From IMG/VR virus record IMGVR_UViG_3300045988_020586: a DNA stretch of 64,000 bases; one strand, given 5' to 3'. Shown here piece after piece: positions 5,692-29,908 of this stretch. Every line of letters begins with the position of its first letter. The stretch's first letter is position 1. This DNA is from a virus. The notes beneath the pieces were generated by a model. The model was given only the letters and a program-made list of their open reading frames with translations, searched no databases and had not been told where the DNA came from. Made by a program: the position numbers and the translations under genes.

Positions 5692-7101
5692 ACTACTTTG
5701 CTTACTTAGTTTTCTAAAGAAAGTTCTACTATTGTAGACGCTTTTCATAGACTTAGCTACACTATTTCTACTACAACAATAGGGTAGTAGACTTGTAGCA
5801 GGAATTACGTACGTATGACGTAATTAACATTTACTGGATTATCCAGGCCCATCGTCTAAAGCTTTGAATGCTTTCTTTGCATAATCAAATGCTGAACTAT
5901 TTTCTGCTATTTTGTTCACGTTTTTTCTAACTTAACTATTCTAATCTTCGTTGGTGAAATTTTGCAGAGCAACTAACACTCATAGAATCTTAGAATCCTT
6001 ATAACCCACGAAAATATGTAGAATCTCGGTCGTATTTCCCTTACTATACTTACAAGATATTCCTACACGATTGTTATTAAAGCAGATGATCTCTACTGCT
6101 AACTTAAAAGCGACTGTCAGCTAGGTCTCCTTACTGCGGTACTCGGCTTATGGCATGTACCCAGCGGTTGGTTATCGGAATGTCTCAGGATCAAACCCAT
6201 CACAGACTTTACGGCTTTTTACATCTTTGCTGATGTTTGCAATTTTTCTGTACCGGTATTACTACCTCCTATTTATAGTGCACGAATATTGGGAATTCAA
6301 CCCATACATTTCATCTTGTCACCCACTTATAAACGTAATATACATGTATAGAGACAGTATACACATATAATATACACAGTCGTTTTACAACATAGAATAT
6401 AAGCTGCCCATCAATTTCCTGTATTGCTTCGAACCTTTGTGTTTACATATACTGTTGCACAGTATACTTTAGCATGGTTGGCATATCGGTTGGCACTCGA
6501 TTTCTTTACCTCAAGTCCTTACTTACAACGTAAGATACACTCTATAAAGGGACATCAATTTTTTGTTAAACATGTTACATTTTAAACTTTCTAGATTTTC
6601 ATAGTCTATATCTTTTGCATACAACATACGCATATATAATATACCAGCTTACTACTCTGTAGAGACTATATAATATTGCATATCATAATACAAATAGACT
6701 ATTGGTCTAAATTGTTTTGGATGAAAGTGGAGGTCAAATGATCCTGGCTGGATATATCTCGAATCAACTTTCTACCTATTTTGCTATTTCTTATTCTAGG
6801 ATAGCTTTCCATCAATTTTCTTTGACTGTAACGGAGTCATCGATCATAGTCTCATGAACGATTTAATTTTCATGGAAATTGGCTGTAAGTTCGGATTGCC
6901 TAACATCCTAATTGCAACTGGAATAGATTTTCACCGCGATCTTCACCCGCGTACGATACTCCCGTAGAGCTTCGATTAAGGGACTGCCCAACCCTTGTGC
7001 TTGTTTTACTTTTATATACCGCATAAACAAGAAAAGCCTGGCGGTCTACCATGAACTCAGACGTCTTACACCTCATCCCTGGCACCCCTTCAATGGAGTT
7101 G

Positions 7102-10214: not shown

Positions 10215-10772
10215 TTAAACTTTTAAGTTATTTTTAATTTTCCTACGAGTGCGGCTTAATGCTGCTTTTATAGTGCCTGTAGGAGTTTTTAGCACTTTGC
10301 TAATTTCGTCAACTGATAGATCCTCTACGTAAAACAAATTAAAAATCTTTTGTGTCTTTTTAGGGAGCTTTTCAAACTCCTTTAAAAGAAATTCGTGTTC
10401 AAGAAGATTGACAAGATCTTCTTCTTCCGAAGAACTAGTTAATTCTACGGGTAGTCGGCCCATATCTTCTCCTAATTCCATAGATTTCTCCTTTATCTTT
10501 CGTAAATAATCTATAGCCGTTCTATTAGCTATAATTCTCAGCCATCCGCCAAAAGACGAATAATCTGTGAATGTCGAGAGTTTCTGGTGAACCTTAAGAA
10601 ATACAACATTTGTAAGATCTTTAGCTTCATCCATATCATTCACGTAATGAAAGAGTACGTTGTCAACGAACTCCTTATAACGGTTAAACAATTTATTAAA
10701 CGCAAGCTCATTTCCCTTCTGAGCTTCTTTTATGGTCTCAATCTCAGATTGAGTGATACGCTGATACTCCAT
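10215..10772 (-). CDS. ECF-type sigma-70 family sigma factor
   Basis: 185 aa. Region 2-like DLTNVVFLKVHQKL...FGGWLRIIANRTAIDYLRK and region 4-like LSVDEISKVLKTPTGTIKAALSRTRRKIK. Confidence 0.75.
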   Translation of the reverse strand: MEYQRITQSEIETIKEAQKGNELAFNKLFNRYKEFVDNVLFHYVNDMDEAKDLTNVVFLKVHQKLSTFTDYSSFGGWLRIIANRTAIDYLRKIKEKSMELGEDMGRLPVELTSSSEEEDLVNLLEHEFLLKEFEKLPKKTQKIFNLFYVEDLSVDEISKVLKTPTGTIKAALSRTRRKIKNNLKV

Positions 10773-12180: not shown

Positions 12181-12798
12181 ATGGAACAGATAAAGAAATA
12201 TATGCAAAACAGAAAGTTAATAACTTTCGTTTGTGATTGTTGTGGAAAAGAAGCTCAAAAACCTCTTTCCGAATACAACAGAAACAAGAAACTTGGTAGG
12301 AAGAATTTTTGTAGTAGAAGTTGTGCAATTCGTTATGCTAATAAAAATAAATTACATACATTTACAGATAAATGTAGAGAACATCTTTTAAGTATTTGCA
12401 ACAATCAAATAGACGAATATACCGATTTTAGATATATCCTTAGAAGTGTCTATAAAAGATTTAAAGAAGTAGATATAGATTTAGAGTATCTAAAACAACT
12501 TTGGGAGACACAAAAAGGAATTTGCCCTTATACTGGTATAAAATTAAAGCTTCCAACATATAAAAGCCATAACTTCTATTTTGATTGTGCATCTTTAGAC
12601 AGAATAGATTCTTCTAAAGGCTACGTTAAAGGAAATGTTCAATTCATATCATTACCTATAAATTATATGAAATCTACTAAATCAGATATTGAAATCAGAC
12701 AATTTCTTAAACAAATTTCTTCTTACACTTCACATTTCTGCGAAGATGAGACTATCTCTTCACCTAAAGAGGTGTTGGGCGCTCGAGCTGGTAATTAA
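12181..12798 (+). CDS. HNH-family homing endonuclease-like protein, free-standing and opposite to the surrounding operon
   Basis: First ATG inside track ORF 12145..12798 (which starts at TTG). N-terminal CxxC...C...C zinc-finger-like segment; C-terminal CPYTG...ASLDRIDSSKGYVKGNVQFISLPINYMK. Confidence 0.6.
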   Translation: MEQIKKYMQNRKLITFVCDCCGKEAQKPLSEYNRNKKLGRKNFCSRSCAIRYANKNKLHTFTDKCREHLLSICNNQIDEYTDFRYILRSVYKRFKEVDIDLEYLKQLWETQKGICPYTGIKLKLPTYKSHNFYFDCASLDRIDSSKGYVKGNVQFISLPINYMKSTKSDIEIRQFLKQISSYTSHFCEDETISSPKEVLGARAGN

Positions 12799-12832
12799 GA
12801 AGACTATACTTCTCCAGTAGTCGTTGCACTTT

Positions 12833-12850
12833 CTTGTGGTGTACCACAAG
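12833..12850 (+). terminator. Hairpin downstream of the HNH gene (weak terminator candidate)
   Basis: CTTGTGG-TGTA-CCACAAG, 7 bp, no U-tract. Confidence 0.25.
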
Positions 12851-13136
12851 CTTAGCTCAGGGTTAGCATGAACAATACTAGCTTTGAGCTATTATTGTTT
12901 TTAGCCTTCCTTGAATTCACCCAATATGGGCTCGGTAAGAACCCCTGTCCAAACAGATTATTTCATACACACTGTACATTTGTTTTGTAAATGTCCTGAT
13001 GATCAGTCAGAACATTTGATTTAAACCACTTTAGGTGCGTTCTAAGGCATTTTTGCGACACTTGTGGTTAATTACTCCACTCGGTGACATACTCTGCCTC
13101 AGAATGCATTAGAACATGGTTGAAAATATATAGGAA

Positions 13137-18626: not shown

Positions 18627-18920
18627 TTACTTGTTAATTAAGTTGTCTACTTTGGATTTTGCTTCTAAGTAATCACTACCATAATCTGTTGCAAGATCTG
18701 TATCCATAAGATCAAGATTATGTGTTCCATTGAGAGAGTCAAGCAATGTTTCGACACATGTATAGTATCTTTCATATGCTTCTATCTTTTTCTCTGCTTT
18801 TTTGCCCTTACCTGTATGGTAATTTGACATAAAGCAGGCACCCACAAAGCAGCCTAATACTGCTCCTACTAACAATAAATTCATGTTGTCCATAAAACGA
18901 TGTACTTTATTCTTTTCCAT
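18627..18920 (-). CDS. small membrane protein (97 aa)
   Basis: ORF track; TM segment LLLVGAVLGCFVGACF. Confidence 0.6.
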   Translation of the reverse strand: MEKNKVHRFMDNMNLLLVGAVLGCFVGACFMSNYHTGKGKKAEKKIEAYERYYTCVETLLDSLNGTHNLDLMDTDLATDYGSDYLEAKSKVDNLINK

Positions 18921-18952
18921 ATATATAATTATTGATTAATATACATAATAAA

Positions 18953-18982
18953 AACGTGCCTATCTTCACAGACCAGCACGTT
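18953..18982. repeat. Family B conserved-loop hairpin, copy B1
   Basis: Stem AACGTGC/GCACGTT (7 bp); loop CTATCTTCACAGACCA (16 nt). Confidence 0.65.
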
Positions 18983-19460
18983 GAGCATCGAAATAAAACC
19001 TACGTCACTTAGTAAAAGATGATGTAAGAAAATCGGTATGGTAAAAAACAAATTGAAGTGGTTACTGGACTCGAACCGTCGCTATGTTGCGCTTTACTAT
19101 AGCCAAGTACAATATCCATATAATGCATTTGTACATAGTATACCCTCTTGCTTTAGCAAGTGTATAATAACCACTATCCGTCTCTCCAGATTGTCATAGA
19201 GACTGGGTCTACATTTGACAGATTGCACCTTTTGCAAATAGGCTGTAGTTACCGTATCTCAGTTTTACACGTAAACCTATTGCCTATAGACGACTCACCC
19301 TCTGTGTTCTACAATCGACATCTTATAGCTTTGCAAGTACCATAAGCACGTGTTGTAGTCATGGGCTTGGGACCATGAACGCCACATTACTGCCTACGAT
19401 TTATCACGTTAGCGTAGGCGCTCCGTCATCCTAGTTTATATACCGCATGAGATAACGGTT

Positions 19461-19492
19461 TAATACAACTATCTTCACAGACCATTGTATTA
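19461..19492. repeat. Family B conserved-loop hairpin, copy B2
   Basis: Stem TAATACAA/TTGTATTA (8 bp); identical 16-nt loop. Confidence 0.65.
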
Positions 19493-19609
19493 TGAGGTCT
19501 ATTCGCGCTTTGAGTAATGAATCAGACTACACCATGATGCAACATGTGTAGTTTCGTCTAGGTCTCATCAGTGATGATTTTAGACTCTCCCTAGCTGAGT
19601 TTAAATAAA

Positions 19610-19641
19610 ACATACCACTATCTTCACAGACCATGGTATGT
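19610..19641. repeat. Family B conserved-loop hairpin, copy B3
   Basis: Stem ACATACCA/TGGTATGT (8 bp); identical 16-nt loop. Confidence 0.65.
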
Positions 19642-19791
19642 GCCAAACCTATTGTTGTTACACTTAACAACTACAACCTACATCCTAACTAAAAAACCTG
19701 ACATTTATTTGATTATTATACGTCTTTATTTGTCTTTCCAAATGCCAACGCTTATTTATACTCTTGCGTATAGAGTTATGTTATTATACAT

Positions 19792-19980
19792 TTAATCAAA
19801 AATGTAATATACTAACACCTTGTTTGCAGCCTTTACATACGAAATACAAGGTATATTCAATGATGAAGCAAACTTGTCTGCTAAATCATTGCCATCAAAC
19901 ATTATCTCGACACCAAATTCTGTTATTAAACAGTTTTGGATATCTTTGTTTGCTGCTCCATTCTCAATTATTGCTTTCAT
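19792..19980 (-). CDS. hypothetical protein (62 aa)
   Basis: ORF track; ATG; TAA; isolated between two ORF-free tracts. Confidence 0.45.
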   Translation of the reverse strand: MKAIIENGAANKDIQNCLITEFGVEIMFDGNDLADKFASSLNIPCISYVKAANKVLVYYIFD

Positions 19981-20354
19981 ATTGATTATGTTTTTATTAC
20001 CGATTTAAAAGTGTTCGTCTGTTCCGAACTGCCAACACAAGTCTTGTCTTGTGATTAATTTACTTTCCAAGATGTCTGTTACTAATTTTTATGTGCTATA
20101 TGTAACAATATATACACAAGTATTTTTGTAGAAAAACACAAAACTATTTATCTCATACTATTTGCTCGGTTATGATAAATAGTTTACCGAACAAAGCTTC
20201 TATAATGATTACACAACTAATTTGTCCTTCGTAATAACTTGTATTACGAAATTAGTTTCCATGTTGTTATAGAAGCAATTAAGTTTACACATCTACGCAA
20301 TGTGCATAAAAGCTATATATTAAAACAGCCTATTTGAGCTGTTACGTAGAATTT

Positions 20355-28433: not shown

Positions 28434-29908
28434 ATGGAGTTAAAATTTAAGAGACTTGAGGACGAAGCGGTCCTCCCTATTCGTAGCACAGAAGGTGCTG
28501 CAGGAATTGATTTGACATGCATTAAGATTGATACAGCTCTTAATGAAGCAAATCAGCTAATGTTGGTTTACCATACAGGATTGGCAGTTGAGATTCCTGC
28601 CGGATATGTTGGTTTACTTATACCACGCTCTAGTATTTGGAAGAAATCATTATGGCTTACTGATAATGTTGGAGTGATTGACGCTAGAATATTGATACGT
28701 TATTGAGTATCAATGCAACCAACTCTATTCGCATATCGTTATGATGATATAACTAAACACAAAATATCATGATAACAAAAATTTGCAAACAATGTGGTAA
28801 GGAATTTGATGTACCAGAATACAGAAAGGATGCTAAATACTGCTGTGACGAATGTAAACACAAAGCACTGCATGGAGATTTAAATTGTGAGTGTGAGGTT
28901 TGTGGCAAGAAATTCCACTTAAAACCATACGCTCTTAAAAAGAGTAAACATCATACATGTAGCCGCGAGTGTTTAAACAAACTTAAAAGTACATTATATA
29001 AAGGTGAAGGAAATCATCAATATGGTCTAAAAGGCGATAAGAATTCATCTTTCAAAGGAAACGTAATCCTGCGTAAGAACAATGGACTAATCGAGAGAAT
29101 GATCTACAATCCTAGACACCCATACGCTGATCGTAATGGTAGGATTAAGGAACACAGATTAATAGTTGAGCAGAATTACAAAATGTTTGACGATAAATAC
29201 TTTGAAGTTATAAACGGAGAGCATTATTTAAAGAAGAATGTAGATGTACATCACATTAACTTTAATCATAACGATAATAGAATAGAAAACCTAATTCCCT
29301 TGACTAGAGCGGAACATACAAAGCTTCATAACCAAAATGAAGTTATATACAGAAATGAGAAGGGAATGATAATTGGTGTCTTAAAACAGGGTGAATTGCT
29401 GGAAAAGCCTGAAGAGGTCAATCAGCAGCCAAGCTTGGGTAGTGATACCCTTGAAGGTTCAGAGACTAACAGCCGAGTCTTACGAGACAGTAATGCTGAC
29501 ACGAGTGCCCTGCCCGGAAACGGTGAAGATATAGTCCGATCTACTGATAACAAAATAAACAGTAGAAATATAGAGATAAAGAGCTCTATAGATTAACAAC
29601 TCCTAATTTTGTTGGATTATAGAGGAGAGATTATAGCTATAATGAAAGCCACAACAGATGTGGTTCCTGCTATTTATAAGCAGGGCGAGCGCTTCTGTCA
29701 GTTGGTCATAGTTCCGGTGCCAGAATACGAGGTTACAGAAGTGTCTGAGCTTTCTGATACAAAACGAGGCGAGAATGGCTTTGGTTCAACTGGTACCGAT
29801 AATAAGGAAGTTAGCGCAGCTGCGGGAACTGAGGCACAGGCTAGCGAACAGCCACAGTCCGTACCAGAGCAAGCGGCGGCACAAGATGGTGCTGAGGTAG
29901 GTGAGTGA
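28434..29908 (+). CDS. dut: dUTPase, split gene: join(28434..28685, 29615..29908)
   Basis: Exon 1 ends ...NVGVIDA and exon 2 starts DYRGEIIAIM..., so joining restores the GVID.DYRGE motif. Other motifs: AAGIDL, IPRSS, KRGENGFGSTG. Confidence 0.8.
28686..29614 (+). mobile_element. Group I-like intron in dUTPase carrying an HNH ORF
   Basis: The junction is set by the protein motif. The 5' exon ends in T (28685) and the intron ends in G (29614), as expected for group I. Local helix ATTGATAC-GTTATTGA-GTATCAAT near the 5' end. Confidence 0.65.
28769..29596 (+). CDS. Intron-encoded HNH homing endonuclease
   Basis: 275 aa; N-terminal Cys clusters; VDVHHINFNHNDNRIENLIPLTRAEHTKLH; no internal TAG; TAA stop. 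Confidence 0.8.
   Translation: MITKICKQCGKEFDVPEYRKDAKYCCDECKHKALHGDLNCECEVCGKKFHLKPYALKKSKHHTCSRECLNKLKSTLYKGEGNHQYGLKGDKNSSFKGNVILRKNNGLIERMIYNPRHPYADRNGRIKEHRLIVEQNYKMFDDKYFEVINGEHYLKKNVDVHHINFNHNDNRIENLIPLTRAEHTKLHNQNEVIYRNEKGMIIGVLKQGELLEKPEEVNQQPSLGSDTLEGSETNSRVLRDSNADTSALPGNGEDIVRSTDNKINSRNIEIKSSID

What the first reader, a model, noticed from the sequence alone, without database searches (positions are those of the whole stretch)
18953..19641. Family B: three hairpins share an identical 16-nt loop but have completely different stems
B1 is AACGTGC-[CTATCTTCACAGACCA]-GCACGTT, B2 is TAATACAA-[same loop]-TTGTATTA and B3 is ACATACCA-[same loop]-TGGTATGT. The loop is 16/16 identical in all three, while no stem position is conserved and every stem is a perfect 7-8 bp helix. 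This implies selection for pairing plus a sequence-specific single-stranded loop, as expected for a stem-loop recognised by a protein or RNA. They are not classical terminators (AT-rich stems, large loop, no U-tract) and are the opposite of CRISPR repeats. All three lie in an 870-nt ORF-free tract, and B1 ends 33 nt upstream of the start of CDS 18627..18920. An ATCTTCAC 8-mer also occurs in a CGCG-closed loop at 6935-6951. Possible roles: promoter or terminator for a phage-encoded RNA polymerase (phage N4 uses hairpin promoters, and crAss-like phages package an RNAP), RNA processing or packaging sites, or replication-origin elements.
Basis: seen in the sequence. Interest (0 to 1): 0.78.

Follow-up and report, generated by a model that had tools for sequence, protein, structure and literature searches.

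The report
Conserved-cap RNA hairpin of Bacteroidales phages
The three hairpins are real copies of a widespread, apparently uncatalogued RNA hairpin of gut Bacteroidales phages that sits at the boundaries of tRNA and ribozyme genes; what it does is still inferred, not shown.

Summary
The exact 16-mer occurs three times (18960, 19469, 19618), each flanked by perfect, unrelated 7-8 bp inverted repeats.

The functional strand is the minus (coding) strand. There the "loop" is not single-stranded. It reads UGG-UCU-GUGA-AGA-UAG, meaning a GNRA tetraloop on a covarying 3-bp helix above three non-Watson-Crick pairs (U.G, G.A, G.U). B1 and B3 are followed by U-tracts. B2 is not.

The same element occurs in at least 120 viral contigs with more than 70 different stems. 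It is also in prophages of Bacteroides, Prevotella and Parabacteroides, and in cultured phage crAss001. It lies on the transcribed strand and almost never inside ORFs. It typically sits 2-9 nt upstream of a tRNA, just upstream of hammerhead, hatchet or twister ribozymes, or is followed by a U-tract.

In the window the copies punctuate a non-coding island: B3, RAGATH-1 hammerhead, B2, twister-like element, a roughly 330-nt structured RNA, then B1.

No Rfam 15 family matches, and no paper in the searchable library carries the sequence.

The best reading is an RNA boundary hairpin that acts as a terminator or 3'-end element, with a cap recognised by a trans-factor. An N4-like hairpin promoter is disfavoured. 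The function is inferred only.

The parts
19610..19641 (-). Hairpin B3: stem ACAUACCA/UGGUAUGU around the conserved cap UGGUCUGUGAAGAUAG
   Evidence: CM R1 scores it 42.3 bits. MFE -15.7 kcal/mol. Orthologous copies in L023, L051, L240 and L167 carry compensatory stem changes.
19603..19609 (-). U-rich tail (UUUAUUU) directly 3' of B3, giving a terminator-like architecture; the hammerhead starts at 19601
   Evidence: Read from the sequence. Across the family, 126 of 227 copies have a T-rich tail.
19644..19651 (-). TAGGTTTG, a perfect match to the Bacteroides -7 promoter consensus TAnnTTTG, 2 nt upstream of the B3 stem (weak hint only)
   Evidence: The orthologous position in L051/L240 reads TAGATTTG. 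Family-wide enrichment is weak.
19520..19601 (-). RAGATH-1 type hammerhead ribozyme between B3 and B2; cleavage predicted after GUC, between 19525 and 19524
   Evidence: Rfam RF03152, 71.9 bits against a gathering score of 56.3. Also present in cr7_1 at 68.6 bits. The cleavage site is inferred from the hammerhead consensus.
19461..19492 (-). Hairpin B2: stem UAAUACAA/UUGUAUUA around the same cap; no U-tract; embedded between the hammerhead and the twister-like element
   Evidence: CM 43.8 bits. MFE -11.4 kcal/mol.
19361..19427 (-). Twister-like element (type P5), below Rfam threshold but carrying the conserved GUAAUG...GGUCCCAAGCCC core
   Evidence: RF02684, 23.6 bits against a gathering score of 37.6, E = 0.026. 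Same hit in cr7_1. Nearly invariant in six relatives.
19058..19360 (-). Conserved structured RNA of unknown class downstream of the twister-like element; its 3' domain (19058-19174) folds as a multi-arm cloverleaf-like structure with a GGUUCGAGUCC T-loop
   Evidence: Alignment of six relatives with compensatory changes. RNAalifold consensus. Not called by ARAGORN or Rfam.
18953..18982 (-). Hairpin B1: stem AACGUGC/GCACGUU around the same cap
   Evidence: CM 44.0 bits. MFE -15.3 kcal/mol. In cr7_1-type relatives this position holds a different family member (stem GGUAUAU/AUAUACC, cap CGGUUCGUGAGGAUAG).
18944..18952 (-). U-rich tail of B1 (with the stem end it reads GUUUUUAUUAU); the AUG of CDS 18920..18627 follows 32 nt after the stem

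Best explanation
What it is (shown). The three hairpins are members of a previously uncatalogued RNA hairpin family of phages and prophages of Bacteroidales. Each member has a basal stem of 6-8 bp of any sequence. Above it sits a conserved 16-nt apical module that folds as Y.G / G.A / G.U, then a covarying 3-bp helix, then a GUGA (rarely GCGA) tetraloop. The element lies on the transcribed strand of non-coding RNA-gene islands.

How it most likely works (inferred). It acts in the transcript as a boundary or punctuation element that ends up at the 3' end of an RNA unit.
- When a U-tract follows, as for B1 and B3, where stems across this class are more GC-rich, it acts as an intrinsic terminator or attenuator.
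- When a tRNA or a 5'-cleaving ribozyme follows within a few nucleotides, RNase P or the ribozyme would cut just downstream. That leaves the hairpin as the 3' cap of the upstream fragment and insulates the folding of the downstream structured RNA.

The invariant cap cannot be explained by termination or stability alone. It is most simply explained as the docking site of a trans-acting factor. Because no partner gene travels with the hairpin and the phages are unrelated, that factor is probably a host (Bacteroidales) protein or RNA. Its identity is unknown.

In the window the hairpins delimit the units of an island: [B3 + U-tail] - hammerhead - [B2] - twister-like element - roughly 330-nt structured RNA - [B1 + U-tail] - next CDS.
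For: Structure:
- 117 of 126 exact-16-mer copies in viral loci have 5-10 bp paired flanks.
- 76 distinct 6-bp stems are seen, and all four Watson-Crick pairs occur at every stem position.
- On 96 distinct members, 96.2% of cells are paired against 58.5% in shuffles. All 12 pairs show double changes. The covariation score is 1.00 against 0.23, reached by 0 of 500 shuffles.
- Cap variants found without requiring inner pairing are compensatory: UCU/AGA, UUC/GAA, CCU/AGG, UAU/AUA, UAC/GUA.

RNA on the sense strand:
- G.U 45 against A.C 11 in stems.
- G.U at p3/p14 in 204 of 227 copies.
- A generic scan gives 268 hits on the motif strand against 12 on the other strand in 1.17 Mb.
- The coding strand equals the hairpin strand in 102 distinct copies, is opposite in 3 and is ambiguous in 16.
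- Only 3 of 121 copies lie inside an ORF.

Boundary position:
- The hairpin's 3' end lies 2-11 nt before a tRNA's 5' end in 40 cases (39 of them 2-9 nt) and is never closer than 24 nt to a preceding tRNA.
- It directly abuts a hatchet ribozyme in L115.
- It precedes a hammerhead core in L090 and twister-like starts in L072 and the window.

Terminator subclass:
- 126 of 227 copies have a T-rich tail.
- Stem GC is 0.54 in that class against 0.36-0.39 in the others.

Selection at orthologous sites: compensatory changes occur in B3 orthologues, and B1 is replaced by another family member.

Host or clade restriction:
- 35 paired copies were found in 185,579 species genomes. Nearly all are in Bacteroidales, and those inspected lie in prophage or mis-binned phage context.
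- The other 84 hits are unpaired chance 16-mers.

No linked partner gene: the most widely shared protein family within roughly 5-10 kb of the hairpins covers 9 of 53 stem groups.
Against: - No transcript ends, cleavage or binding data exist. Every functional step is inference.
- B3 sits 7 nt before the hammerhead and B1 sits 32 nt before a start codon. If they terminated efficiently, the downstream units would need read-through, so they may be leader elements rather than terminators.
- TTTG and TAnnTTTG-like boxes are somewhat enriched just upstream (64 against 40 +/- 5.6, and 54 against 43.7 +/- 4.6). That would fit a hairpin at the 5' end of primary transcripts instead.
- B2 has neither a U-tract nor an adjacent cleavage site.
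- A host factor is postulated only by exclusion. A partner gene elsewhere in the phage genomes was not tested.
- Members in alignment A1 were picked by a scan that demands pairing, so the percentage paired is inflated.
Confidence: 0.42

Rival explanations
1. Plain intrinsic terminators. The hairpins only stop host RNA polymerase. The shared cap is a fast-folding, stable nucleation module spread by descent or gene conversion, with no trans-factor involved.
For: B1 and B3 have the hairpin-plus-U-tract form, at -15.3 and -15.7 kcal/mol. 126 of 227 family members have T-rich tails, and those have more GC-rich stems. GNRA tetraloops are common in terminators (own knowledge).
Against: B2 and 32 of the 40 tRNA-adjacent copies lack a U-tract and have AT-rich stems. 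A conserved G.A mismatch flanked by two wobble pairs weakens rather than strengthens the helix. Loops normally evolve faster than stems, but here the reverse holds, with compensatory changes that preserve cap geometry. The motif is not the general terminator of the hosts, since only about 35 paired copies were found in 185,579 species genomes.
Confidence: 0.2
2. A promoter-proximal cis-acting leader element. The hairpin is the first structure of a primary transcript. It either protects the 5' end or acts on the transcribing polymerase, giving boxB/N-like, put-like or NusG-paralogue-like antitermination. That would keep untranslated RNA-gene arrays from being terminated by Rho.
For: A perfect TAnnTTTG box lies 2 nt upstream of B3, and the box is conserved in the cr7_1 lineage. 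Near-consensus boxes cluster 0-8 nt upstream of many copies. TTTG is enriched over shuffles. The 24-98 nt between a preceding tRNA and the hairpin is about the size of a promoter. The GNRA-capped hairpin resembles lambda boxB (own knowledge). The hairpin sits in non-coding arrays that would be Rho-sensitive (inference).
Against: Enrichment of the full box is weak, at about z = 2.2. B2 lies inside the hammerhead-to-twister transcript with no box. No conserved boxA-like flanking motif was found. No N-like or other partner gene is linked. A U-tract right after a 5' hairpin would abort transcripts.
Confidence: 0.15
3. A free small hairpin RNA that acts as a decoy or sponge. The roughly 35-75-nt RNA is released by termination, or by RNase P or ribozyme cleavage. 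It is itself the product and titrates a host protein, such as a defence nuclease or RNA-binding regulator. This would resemble the repeated loop motifs of CsrB/RsmZ or phage RNA decoys.
For: Several copies per genome share an identical cap but have different stems: 3 in the window, 4 in cr7_1 and 6-7 in L020. The layout of promoter-like box + hairpin + U-tract forms a minimal gene. Restriction to one host order suggests a host target.
Against: Many phages, including crAss001, have a single copy. No candidate target is known. This reading is purely architectural inference.
Confidence: 0.1
4. A DNA-level element. This could be a hairpin promoter for a phage RNA polymerase (N4-like, the first reader's idea), a recombination site for shuffling RNA-gene cassettes, or a replication-origin element.
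For: The pattern of conserved core with variable arms resembles ssDNA hairpin sites such as CRESS-virus origins (own knowledge). The hairpin precedes tRNA and ribozyme 'cassettes'. B1 has been swapped for another family member in a relative.
Against: The wobble bias and the conserved G.U and U.G pairs place the fold on the sense strand, whereas N4 promoters fold on the template strand (own knowledge). Strict co-orientation with transcription is seen, 102 against 3. The element occurs in integrated prophages and beside a tyrosine integrase, and across contigs of 13-253 kb, so no single phage polymerase or recombinase is shared. The GNRA tetraloop and the covarying 3-bp helix are typical RNA features.
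Confidence: 0.05

Closest known systems
Rho-independent (intrinsic) terminators
   Same: B1, B3 and about half of the family are stable hairpins with a tetraloop followed directly by a U-tract on the transcribed strand. Stems in that subclass are GC-richer.
   Different: An invariant 16-nt apical module with a conserved G.A mismatch and two wobble pairs is not a terminator feature. Many members, including B2 and the tRNA-adjacent copies, have no U-tract.
Phage T7 RNase III processing sites and the mitochondrial 'tRNA punctuation' principle
   Same: Repeated structured elements between RNA units of a phage transcript, with an internal irregularity. After cutting, they would stay as a 3' hairpin on the upstream RNA. 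The position resembles a punctuation mark next to tRNAs.
   Different: The helix is only 12-14 bp, and T7 sites are about two helical turns (own knowledge). No cleavage has been shown. Conservation lies in the cap sequence rather than in overall shape.
Lambda boxB/nut hairpins, and hairpins bound by NusG paralogues such as LoaP
   Same: A short hairpin whose GNRA-type loop and closing pairs carry the specificity. It lies in leaders of transcription units.
   Different: No boxA-like partner motif and no N-like gene were found. The lower stem varies freely. The element is spread across unrelated phage types of a different host phylum.
Hatchet ribozyme P0 hairpin and the RAGATH neighbourhoods
   Same: [quoted passage not shown] The family studied here lives in the same ribozyme-rich islands, with RAGATH-1, -7, -9, -20 and hatchet.
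   Different: In L115 the hairpin lies immediately upstream of the Rfam hatchet hit, which already contains its own small P0. P0 is reported to lack sequence conservation, whereas this cap is conserved.
Theta (minimal HDV-like) ribozymes next to phage tRNAs
   Same: Same ecological niche: gut phages, about 90% with predicted Bacteroidota hosts. Both are small RNA elements placed at a tRNA boundary (PMC10879173).
   Different: Theta ribozymes sit at the tRNA 3' end and self-cleave. This hairpin sits 2-9 nt before the tRNA 5' end. It has no HDV-like core, and the spacers upstream are too short or too AU-rich to hold one.
N4 virion-RNAP hairpin promoters
   Same: A small hairpin with sequence-specific apical nucleotides in a phage genome.
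   Different: N4 hairpins have a 3-nt loop and form on the template DNA strand (own knowledge). Here the cap is a structured 16-nt module, the wobble pairs require the sense strand, and the element also occurs in prophages.

Membership tests
Intrinsic terminator | Stable stem-loop immediately followed by a U-tract on the transcribed strand | tested here: inconclusive
   Met for B1 (GUUUUUAUUAU) and B3 (UUUUAUUU). Not met for B2 (AAACCG). Family-wide, 126 of 227 copies have T-rich tails, but only 8 of the 40 tRNA-adjacent copies do.
Intrinsic terminator | Actual release of transcripts at the U-tract | not testable with these tools
   Needs Term-seq or in vitro transcription.
N4-type hairpin promoter | Hairpin with a 5-7 bp stem and 3-nt loop extruded on the template strand | tested here: not met
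   The cap is a 16-nt structured module. G.U 45 against A.C 11, plus conserved G.U and U.G pairs, put the fold on the sense strand.
N4-type hairpin promoter | Restricted to phages encoding the cognate virion RNA polymerase | tested here: not met
   Present in integrated Bacteroides prophages, next to a tyrosine integrase, and in contigs of 13-253 kb.
Lambda-type nut site (boxA + boxB) | GNRA-like loop on a short stem | tested here: met
   GUGA in 215 of 268 scan hits and GCGA in 12, with a covarying closing helix.
Lambda-type nut site (boxA + boxB) | Conserved boxA-like linear motif next to the hairpin, and an N-like protein | tested here: not met
   No positionally fixed flanking motif was found, only general T-richness and TTTG. 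No shared neighbouring protein family was found. Genes elsewhere in the genomes were not examined.
Any Rfam 15 family (including the RAGATH motifs) | Covariance-model match | tested here: not met
   cmscan of 18700-20100 at E <= 10 returns only the hammerhead, a twister-like hit and two chance hits. Nothing covers the hairpins.
CRISPR repeat / RNA anti-CRISPR (solitary repeat) | Repeat copies share the stem sequence | tested here: not met
   Stems differ completely between copies, with 76 distinct 6-bp stems.
Hatchet P0 hairpin | Hairpin a few nt 5' of the hatchet cleavage site, inside the hatchet model | tested here: not met
   In L115 the hairpin ends where the Rfam hatchet hit, which contains its own P0, begins. 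There is no hatchet in the window.
Theta / HDV-like ribozyme | Nested double-pseudoknot core starting at a tRNA 3' end | tested here: not met
   The hairpin is never closer than 24 nt to a preceding tRNA. Spacers such as the 24-nt one in L034 cannot hold a core. No HDV-family Rfam hit was found.
RNase III processing site (T7 type) | About 20 bp of dsRNA with an internal loop, cleaved by RNase III | tested here: inconclusive
   The helix is 12-14 bp including three non-canonical pairs. Cleavage is not testable here.

The most novel reading that the evidence does not exclude
The conserved cap is the handle of an undescribed RNA-recognition system of the Bacteroidales phage-host interface. A single, probably host-encoded, factor would read UGG-UCU-GUGA-AGA-UAG-type caps on otherwise arbitrary hairpins. 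Through that it would organise the maturation, termination or antitermination, or protection of phage non-coding RNA arrays (tRNAs, hammerhead, twister and hatchet ribozymes). Alternatively the hairpins are released as small decoy RNAs against that factor. Either way it would amount to a shared 'punctuation code' used by unrelated gut phages, including crAss-like phages.
Probability: 0.3. Interest if true: 0.82.

Novelty: new variant of a known kind. Interest (0 to 1): 0.66.

Why it matters
Ribozyme- and tRNA-rich non-coding islands of gut phages have no explained biology. Reviews state that the reason hammerhead and twister ribozymes cluster there is unknown (PMC6765202).

A short element with very strong covariation support recurs at the boundaries of these RNA genes in crAss-like phages, jumbo phages and Bacteroides prophages. 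That gives a concrete, mutable handle on how these arrays are transcribed and processed.

The element is also present in crAss001, a cultured phage with a culturable host. The question is therefore directly testable.

If a host factor reads the cap, it would be a new point of phage dependence on, or interference with, Bacteroidales RNA metabolism. It may also bear on tRNA supply in stop-codon-recoded phages such as this one.

Tried and rejected
1. Part of a theta/HDV-like ribozyme, with the hairpin as P4. Rejected: upstream spacers are as short as 24 nt and AU-rich, and there are no Rfam HDV hits.
2. Identical to the hatchet P0 hairpin. Rejected: in L115 the hairpin lies outside the hatchet model, which has its own P0.
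3. SRP domain IV, Y-RNA (Ro-binding helix) or T-loop mimicry of the cap. These were considered from memory only. The registers do not match, the closing pair covaries (C-G replaces U-A, which excludes a T-loop), and Rfam gives no SRP or Y-RNA hit.
4. Tgt or anticodon-loop mimic. Rejected: the base before the tetraloop G is not conserved.
5. A linked protein partner. All-against-all BLASTP of 2,737 ORFs from the loci found no family shared beyond 9 of 53 stem groups. An ECF sigma factor is encoded in the window (10215..10772, minus strand) but is shared by only 5 groups.
6. A conserved motif upstream or downstream. Only T-richness, TTTG enrichment and a weak TAnnTTTG signal were found. 'TTCAT' and 'TAAAGA' have no fixed position.
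7. Stem complementarity to the downstream tRNA. None was seen by inspection.
8. Literature searches by sequence and by keywords returned nothing relevant. The Weinberg 2015 paper that defined the RAGATH motifs is not held, so its supplement could not be checked.
9. Pfam and PHROGs on the ORFs flanking the island gave no function.
Full report
1. THE OBSERVATION

The 16-mer CTATCTTCACAGACCA is exact at 18960, 19469 and 19618 on the + strand. Allowing three mismatches adds only one unrelated site, against 0.69 expected, and 0 of 100 shuffles reached four matches. Each copy is flanked by a perfect inverted repeat of 7, 8 and 8 bp, and the stem sequences are unrelated.

The genes on both sides are on the minus strand. 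So are the RNA elements between the hairpins. The element should therefore be read as stem-UGGUCUGUGAAGAUAG-stem'. Read that way, B1 continues GUUUUUAUUAU and B3 continues UUUUAUUU. The statement 'no U-tract' is thus wrong for two of the three copies. B2 continues AAACCG. The 8-mer in a CGCG hairpin at 6935-6951 does not belong to the family.

2. THE 'LOOP' IS STRUCTURED

In these loci, 117 of 126 copies have 5-10 contiguous paired flanking positions, mostly 6-8.

I then searched the same loci for copies with up to four mismatches that still had paired flanks. I did not require any pairing inside the 16 nt. This turned up variants such as UGG-UUC-GUGA-GAA-UAG, CGG-CCU-GUGA-AGG-UAU, UGG-UAU-GUGA-AUA-UAG, UGG-UAC-GUGA-GUA-UAG and CCG-UCU-GCGA-AGA-UCG. 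Positions 4-6 and 11-13 therefore change in a compensatory way around a GYGA tetraloop.

Across 227 scan hits:
- p3/p14 is G.U in 204 copies and the isosteric A.C in 3.
- p2/p15 is mostly G.A.
- p1/p16 is U.G or C-G.

A gapless alignment of 96 distinct members (A1) gives 96.2% paired cells against 58.5% in shuffles. All 12 pairs show double-sided changes. The covariation score is 1.00 against 0.23, reached by 0 of 500 shuffles, and slid registers fall to 36-47% paired. The members of A1 were picked by a scan that demands pairing, so the percentage paired is inflated.

ViennaRNA predicts exactly this fold for B1-B3, at -11.4 to -15.7 kcal/mol.

3. RNA, SENSE STRAND

- In the outer stems of 104 distinct copies, G.U pairs outnumber A.C 45 to 11. 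The conserved G.U and U.G in the cap would be A.C mismatches on the other strand.
- A generic structural scan finds 268 hits on the motif strand against 12 on the opposite strand in 1.17 Mb. It finds none on the opposite strand in the genome loci.
- The hairpin strand is the coding strand around 102 distinct copies, the opposite strand around 3, and ambiguous around 16.
- Only 3 of 121 copies lie inside an ORF of 70 aa or more.
- All neighbouring tRNA genes point the same way.

4. WHERE IT LIVES

The window is a crAss-like phage. It is about 81% identical over 62% of a 10-kb query to cr7_1 (Suoliviridae, Burzaovirus).

cr7_1 has the same island in an unannotated 1.26-kb gap. Its order is: hairpin (UUG variant), hairpin, RAGATH-1 hammerhead, hairpin, twister-like element, structured RNA, hairpin with cap CGGUUCGUGAGGAUAG plus Us.

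An alignment of six relatives shows compensatory substitutions in the B3 orthologues (C-G to U-A, and A-U to G-C). It also shows wholesale replacement of B1 by another family member in an otherwise homologous context.

Beyond this lineage the motif occurs in contigs of 13 to 253 kb. It occurs next to a tyrosine integrase. It also occurs in chromosomes of cultured Bacteroides and Parabacteroides; where I inspected the surroundings these contexts look like prophage, with a KilA-N protein, a long coiled-coil tail-type protein, an HTH-type protein and arrays of odd tRNA-like genes.

The genome-collection scan is a useful control. Of 119 exact 16-mers in 596 Gb, 84 have unpaired flanks, are scattered over all phyla, and score at most 33.7 bits with the model. 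The 35 paired copies are almost all from Bacteroidales or from mis-binned phage contigs.

The cultured phage crAss001 has one copy at 1877-1910, scoring 40.5 bits. Its stem ends 6 nt before tRNA-Glu and 45 nt after tRNA-Arg.

5. POSITION RULES

- The 3' end of the hairpin lies 2-11 nt before the 5' end of a tRNA in 40 cases, 39 of them 2-9 nt. That matches the usual tRNA-tRNA spacing in these arrays.
- The distance from a preceding tRNA is never below 24 nt, and its median is about 40 nt.
- Several further copies precede tRNA-like genes that ARAGORN does not call.
- Other copies abut a hatchet ribozyme (L115), a hammerhead core (L090) or twister-like starts (L072 and the window).
- About half (126 of 227) are followed by a T-rich tail. 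These have stem GC of 0.54, against 0.36-0.39 for the rest, and only 8 of the 40 tRNA-adjacent copies have such a tail.

There are thus two sub-populations sharing one cap: terminator-like and non-terminator.

The copies sit in long non-coding tracts. The median distance is 344 nt from the previous stop codon and 208 nt to the next start. A subset lies 16-64 nt after a stop codon, and a subset lies 5-33 nt before a start codon.

6. THE WINDOW'S ISLAND

On the minus strand the order is:
- a TAGGTTTG box (19651-19644);
- B3 (19641-19610) plus U-tail;
- RAGATH-1 hammerhead (19601-19520; 71.9 bits), with cleavage predicted between 19525 and 19524;
- B2 (19492-19461);
- a twister-like element (19427-19361; 23.6 bits, below threshold but with the conserved core and nearly invariant in relatives);
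- a conserved structured RNA down to about 19058, whose 3' domain folds into a cloverleaf-like multi-arm structure with a GGUUCGAGUCC T-loop;
- B1 (18982-18953) plus U-tail;
- 32 nt later, the AUG of CDS 18920..18627.

The model finds no further copy in the 64 kb.

7. WHAT IT DOES

Nothing here measures function. The structure, strand, distribution and position rules are shown. The rest is inference.

The common denominator of the contexts is that an RNA 3' end is expected just downstream of the hairpin. That end would arise by termination at a U-tract, by RNase P at a tRNA 5' end, or by a 5'-cleaving ribozyme. I therefore favour a boundary element that caps the upstream RNA and insulates the downstream fold.

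The invariance of a cap that contains a destabilising G.A mismatch and two wobble pairs calls for specific recognition. No protein family accompanies the hairpins; the best covers 9 of 53 stem groups. The phages carrying them are unrelated, while the hosts belong to one order. A host factor is therefore the economical guess, but no more than a guess.

A competing reading is a promoter-proximal leader element, either a 5' protective hairpin or a boxB/put-like antiterminator. It has some support from TTTG and TAnnTTTG-like boxes just upstream. Those include a perfect box before B3 that is conserved in the cr7_1 lineage. The statistics are weak, however, and B2 has no box.

A decoy small RNA and a plain terminator are further rivals. 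DNA-level roles, including the N4-type promoter, fit worst.

8. COMPARISON WITH WHAT IS KNOWN

- Rfam 15 has no matching family, even at E <= 10 over 1.4 kb.
- No paper in the searchable library contains the sequence or describes such a motif.
- The hatchet paper describes a dispensable P0 hairpin 5' of the cleavage site without sequence conservation (PMC4604424). The present hairpin lies outside that P0.
- Theta ribozymes mark the 3' ends of tRNAs in the same kind of phages (PMC10879173). This hairpin marks the other side.
- I could not read the RAGATH supplement of Weinberg et al. 2015. An unnamed equivalent there cannot be excluded.

9. VERDICT

This is a real, strongly supported and apparently undescribed RNA hairpin family of Bacteroidales phages. 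The function remains open but is testable in crAss001.

Noticed in passing
window 19520-19601 (-): RAGATH-1 type hammerhead ribozyme (RF03152, 71.9 bits) between hairpins B3 and B2. The same arrangement is present in cr7_1 (L240 4834-4915).
   Followed up: partly
window 19361-19427 (-): Twister-like element (type P5, 23.6 bits, below the gathering score of 37.6) with the conserved GUAAUG...GGUCCCAAGCCC core. It is almost invariant in six related phages. It may be a divergent twister that the Rfam model under-scores.
   Followed up: partly
window ~19058-19360 (-): Conserved structured RNA of unknown class following the twister-like element. It has a variable insertion region and two hairpin loops that both carry the self-complementary UUGCAA, which could form a kissing interaction. 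Its 3' domain (19058-19174) folds as a 9-bp acceptor-like stem plus several arms with a GGUUCGAGUCC T-loop. Compensatory changes occur between relatives. It is not called by ARAGORN or Rfam.
   Followed up: partly
window 27000-64000 (+): The + strand (late) gene block is TAG-recoded. Reading TAG as sense raises the number of stop-free frames of 300 codons or more from 4 to 14, with the longest at 1187, 931 and 732 codons. The minus-strand block (1-27 kb) uses the standard code. No CUA suppressor tRNA was called within the window, whereas a relative (L167) has one about 5.7 kb from the island.
   Followed up: partly
window 10215-10772 (-): Phage-encoded ECF-type sigma factor (Sigma70_r2, r4_2 and ECF Pfam domains). 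Homologues are present in a few other hairpin-bearing loci (L024, L051, L056, L117).
   Followed up: partly
window 12728-13020 (-) and 29316-29557 (+): Two group I introns (RF00028, 81 and 65 bits).
   Followed up: no
L189 4590-5420 (Bacteroides congonensis); same element in L200, L206, L229 and many IMG/VR loci: Prophage-borne array of unusual tRNA-like genes, several immediately preceded by hairpins of this family. ARAGORN reports 2-base 'anticodons', meaning 6-nt anticodon loops, and some genes have shortened anticodon arms.
   Followed up: no
L096 ~2450-2530 (oriented): The gene after the hairpin is a chimera: the 5' half of tRNA-Glu(UUC) fused to the 3' half of tRNA-Asp(GUC). In L101 the Glu gene is missing and the hairpin abuts tRNA-Asp. 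This points to recombination between neighbouring tRNA genes in crAss001-like arrays.
   Followed up: no
L115 (IMGVR_UViG_3300045988_030976): One 8-kb stretch holds RAGATH-7, RAGATH-9, RAGATH-20 and a hatchet ribozyme on the same strand as two hairpins of this family.
   Followed up: partly
L020 1950-3250 (oriented): Six to seven hairpins of the family lie within 1.3 kb next to a tyrosine integrase. They are interleaved with a twice-repeated unit, UUUUGAAAGA..GGACGAAAGUCCUAUCAAGAUAUU, and a tRNA with a long insertion.
   Followed up: no
L242 46870-48288 and 19478-20349 (crAss001): As annotated in GenBank, crAss001 encodes a TROVE (Ro60-like) protein with a roughly 900-nt unannotated gap beside it, plus polynucleotide kinase/phosphatase genes. 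These are possible RNA-quality-control or repair partners for ribozyme- and tRNA-rich transcripts. No link to the hairpin was tested.
   Followed up: no
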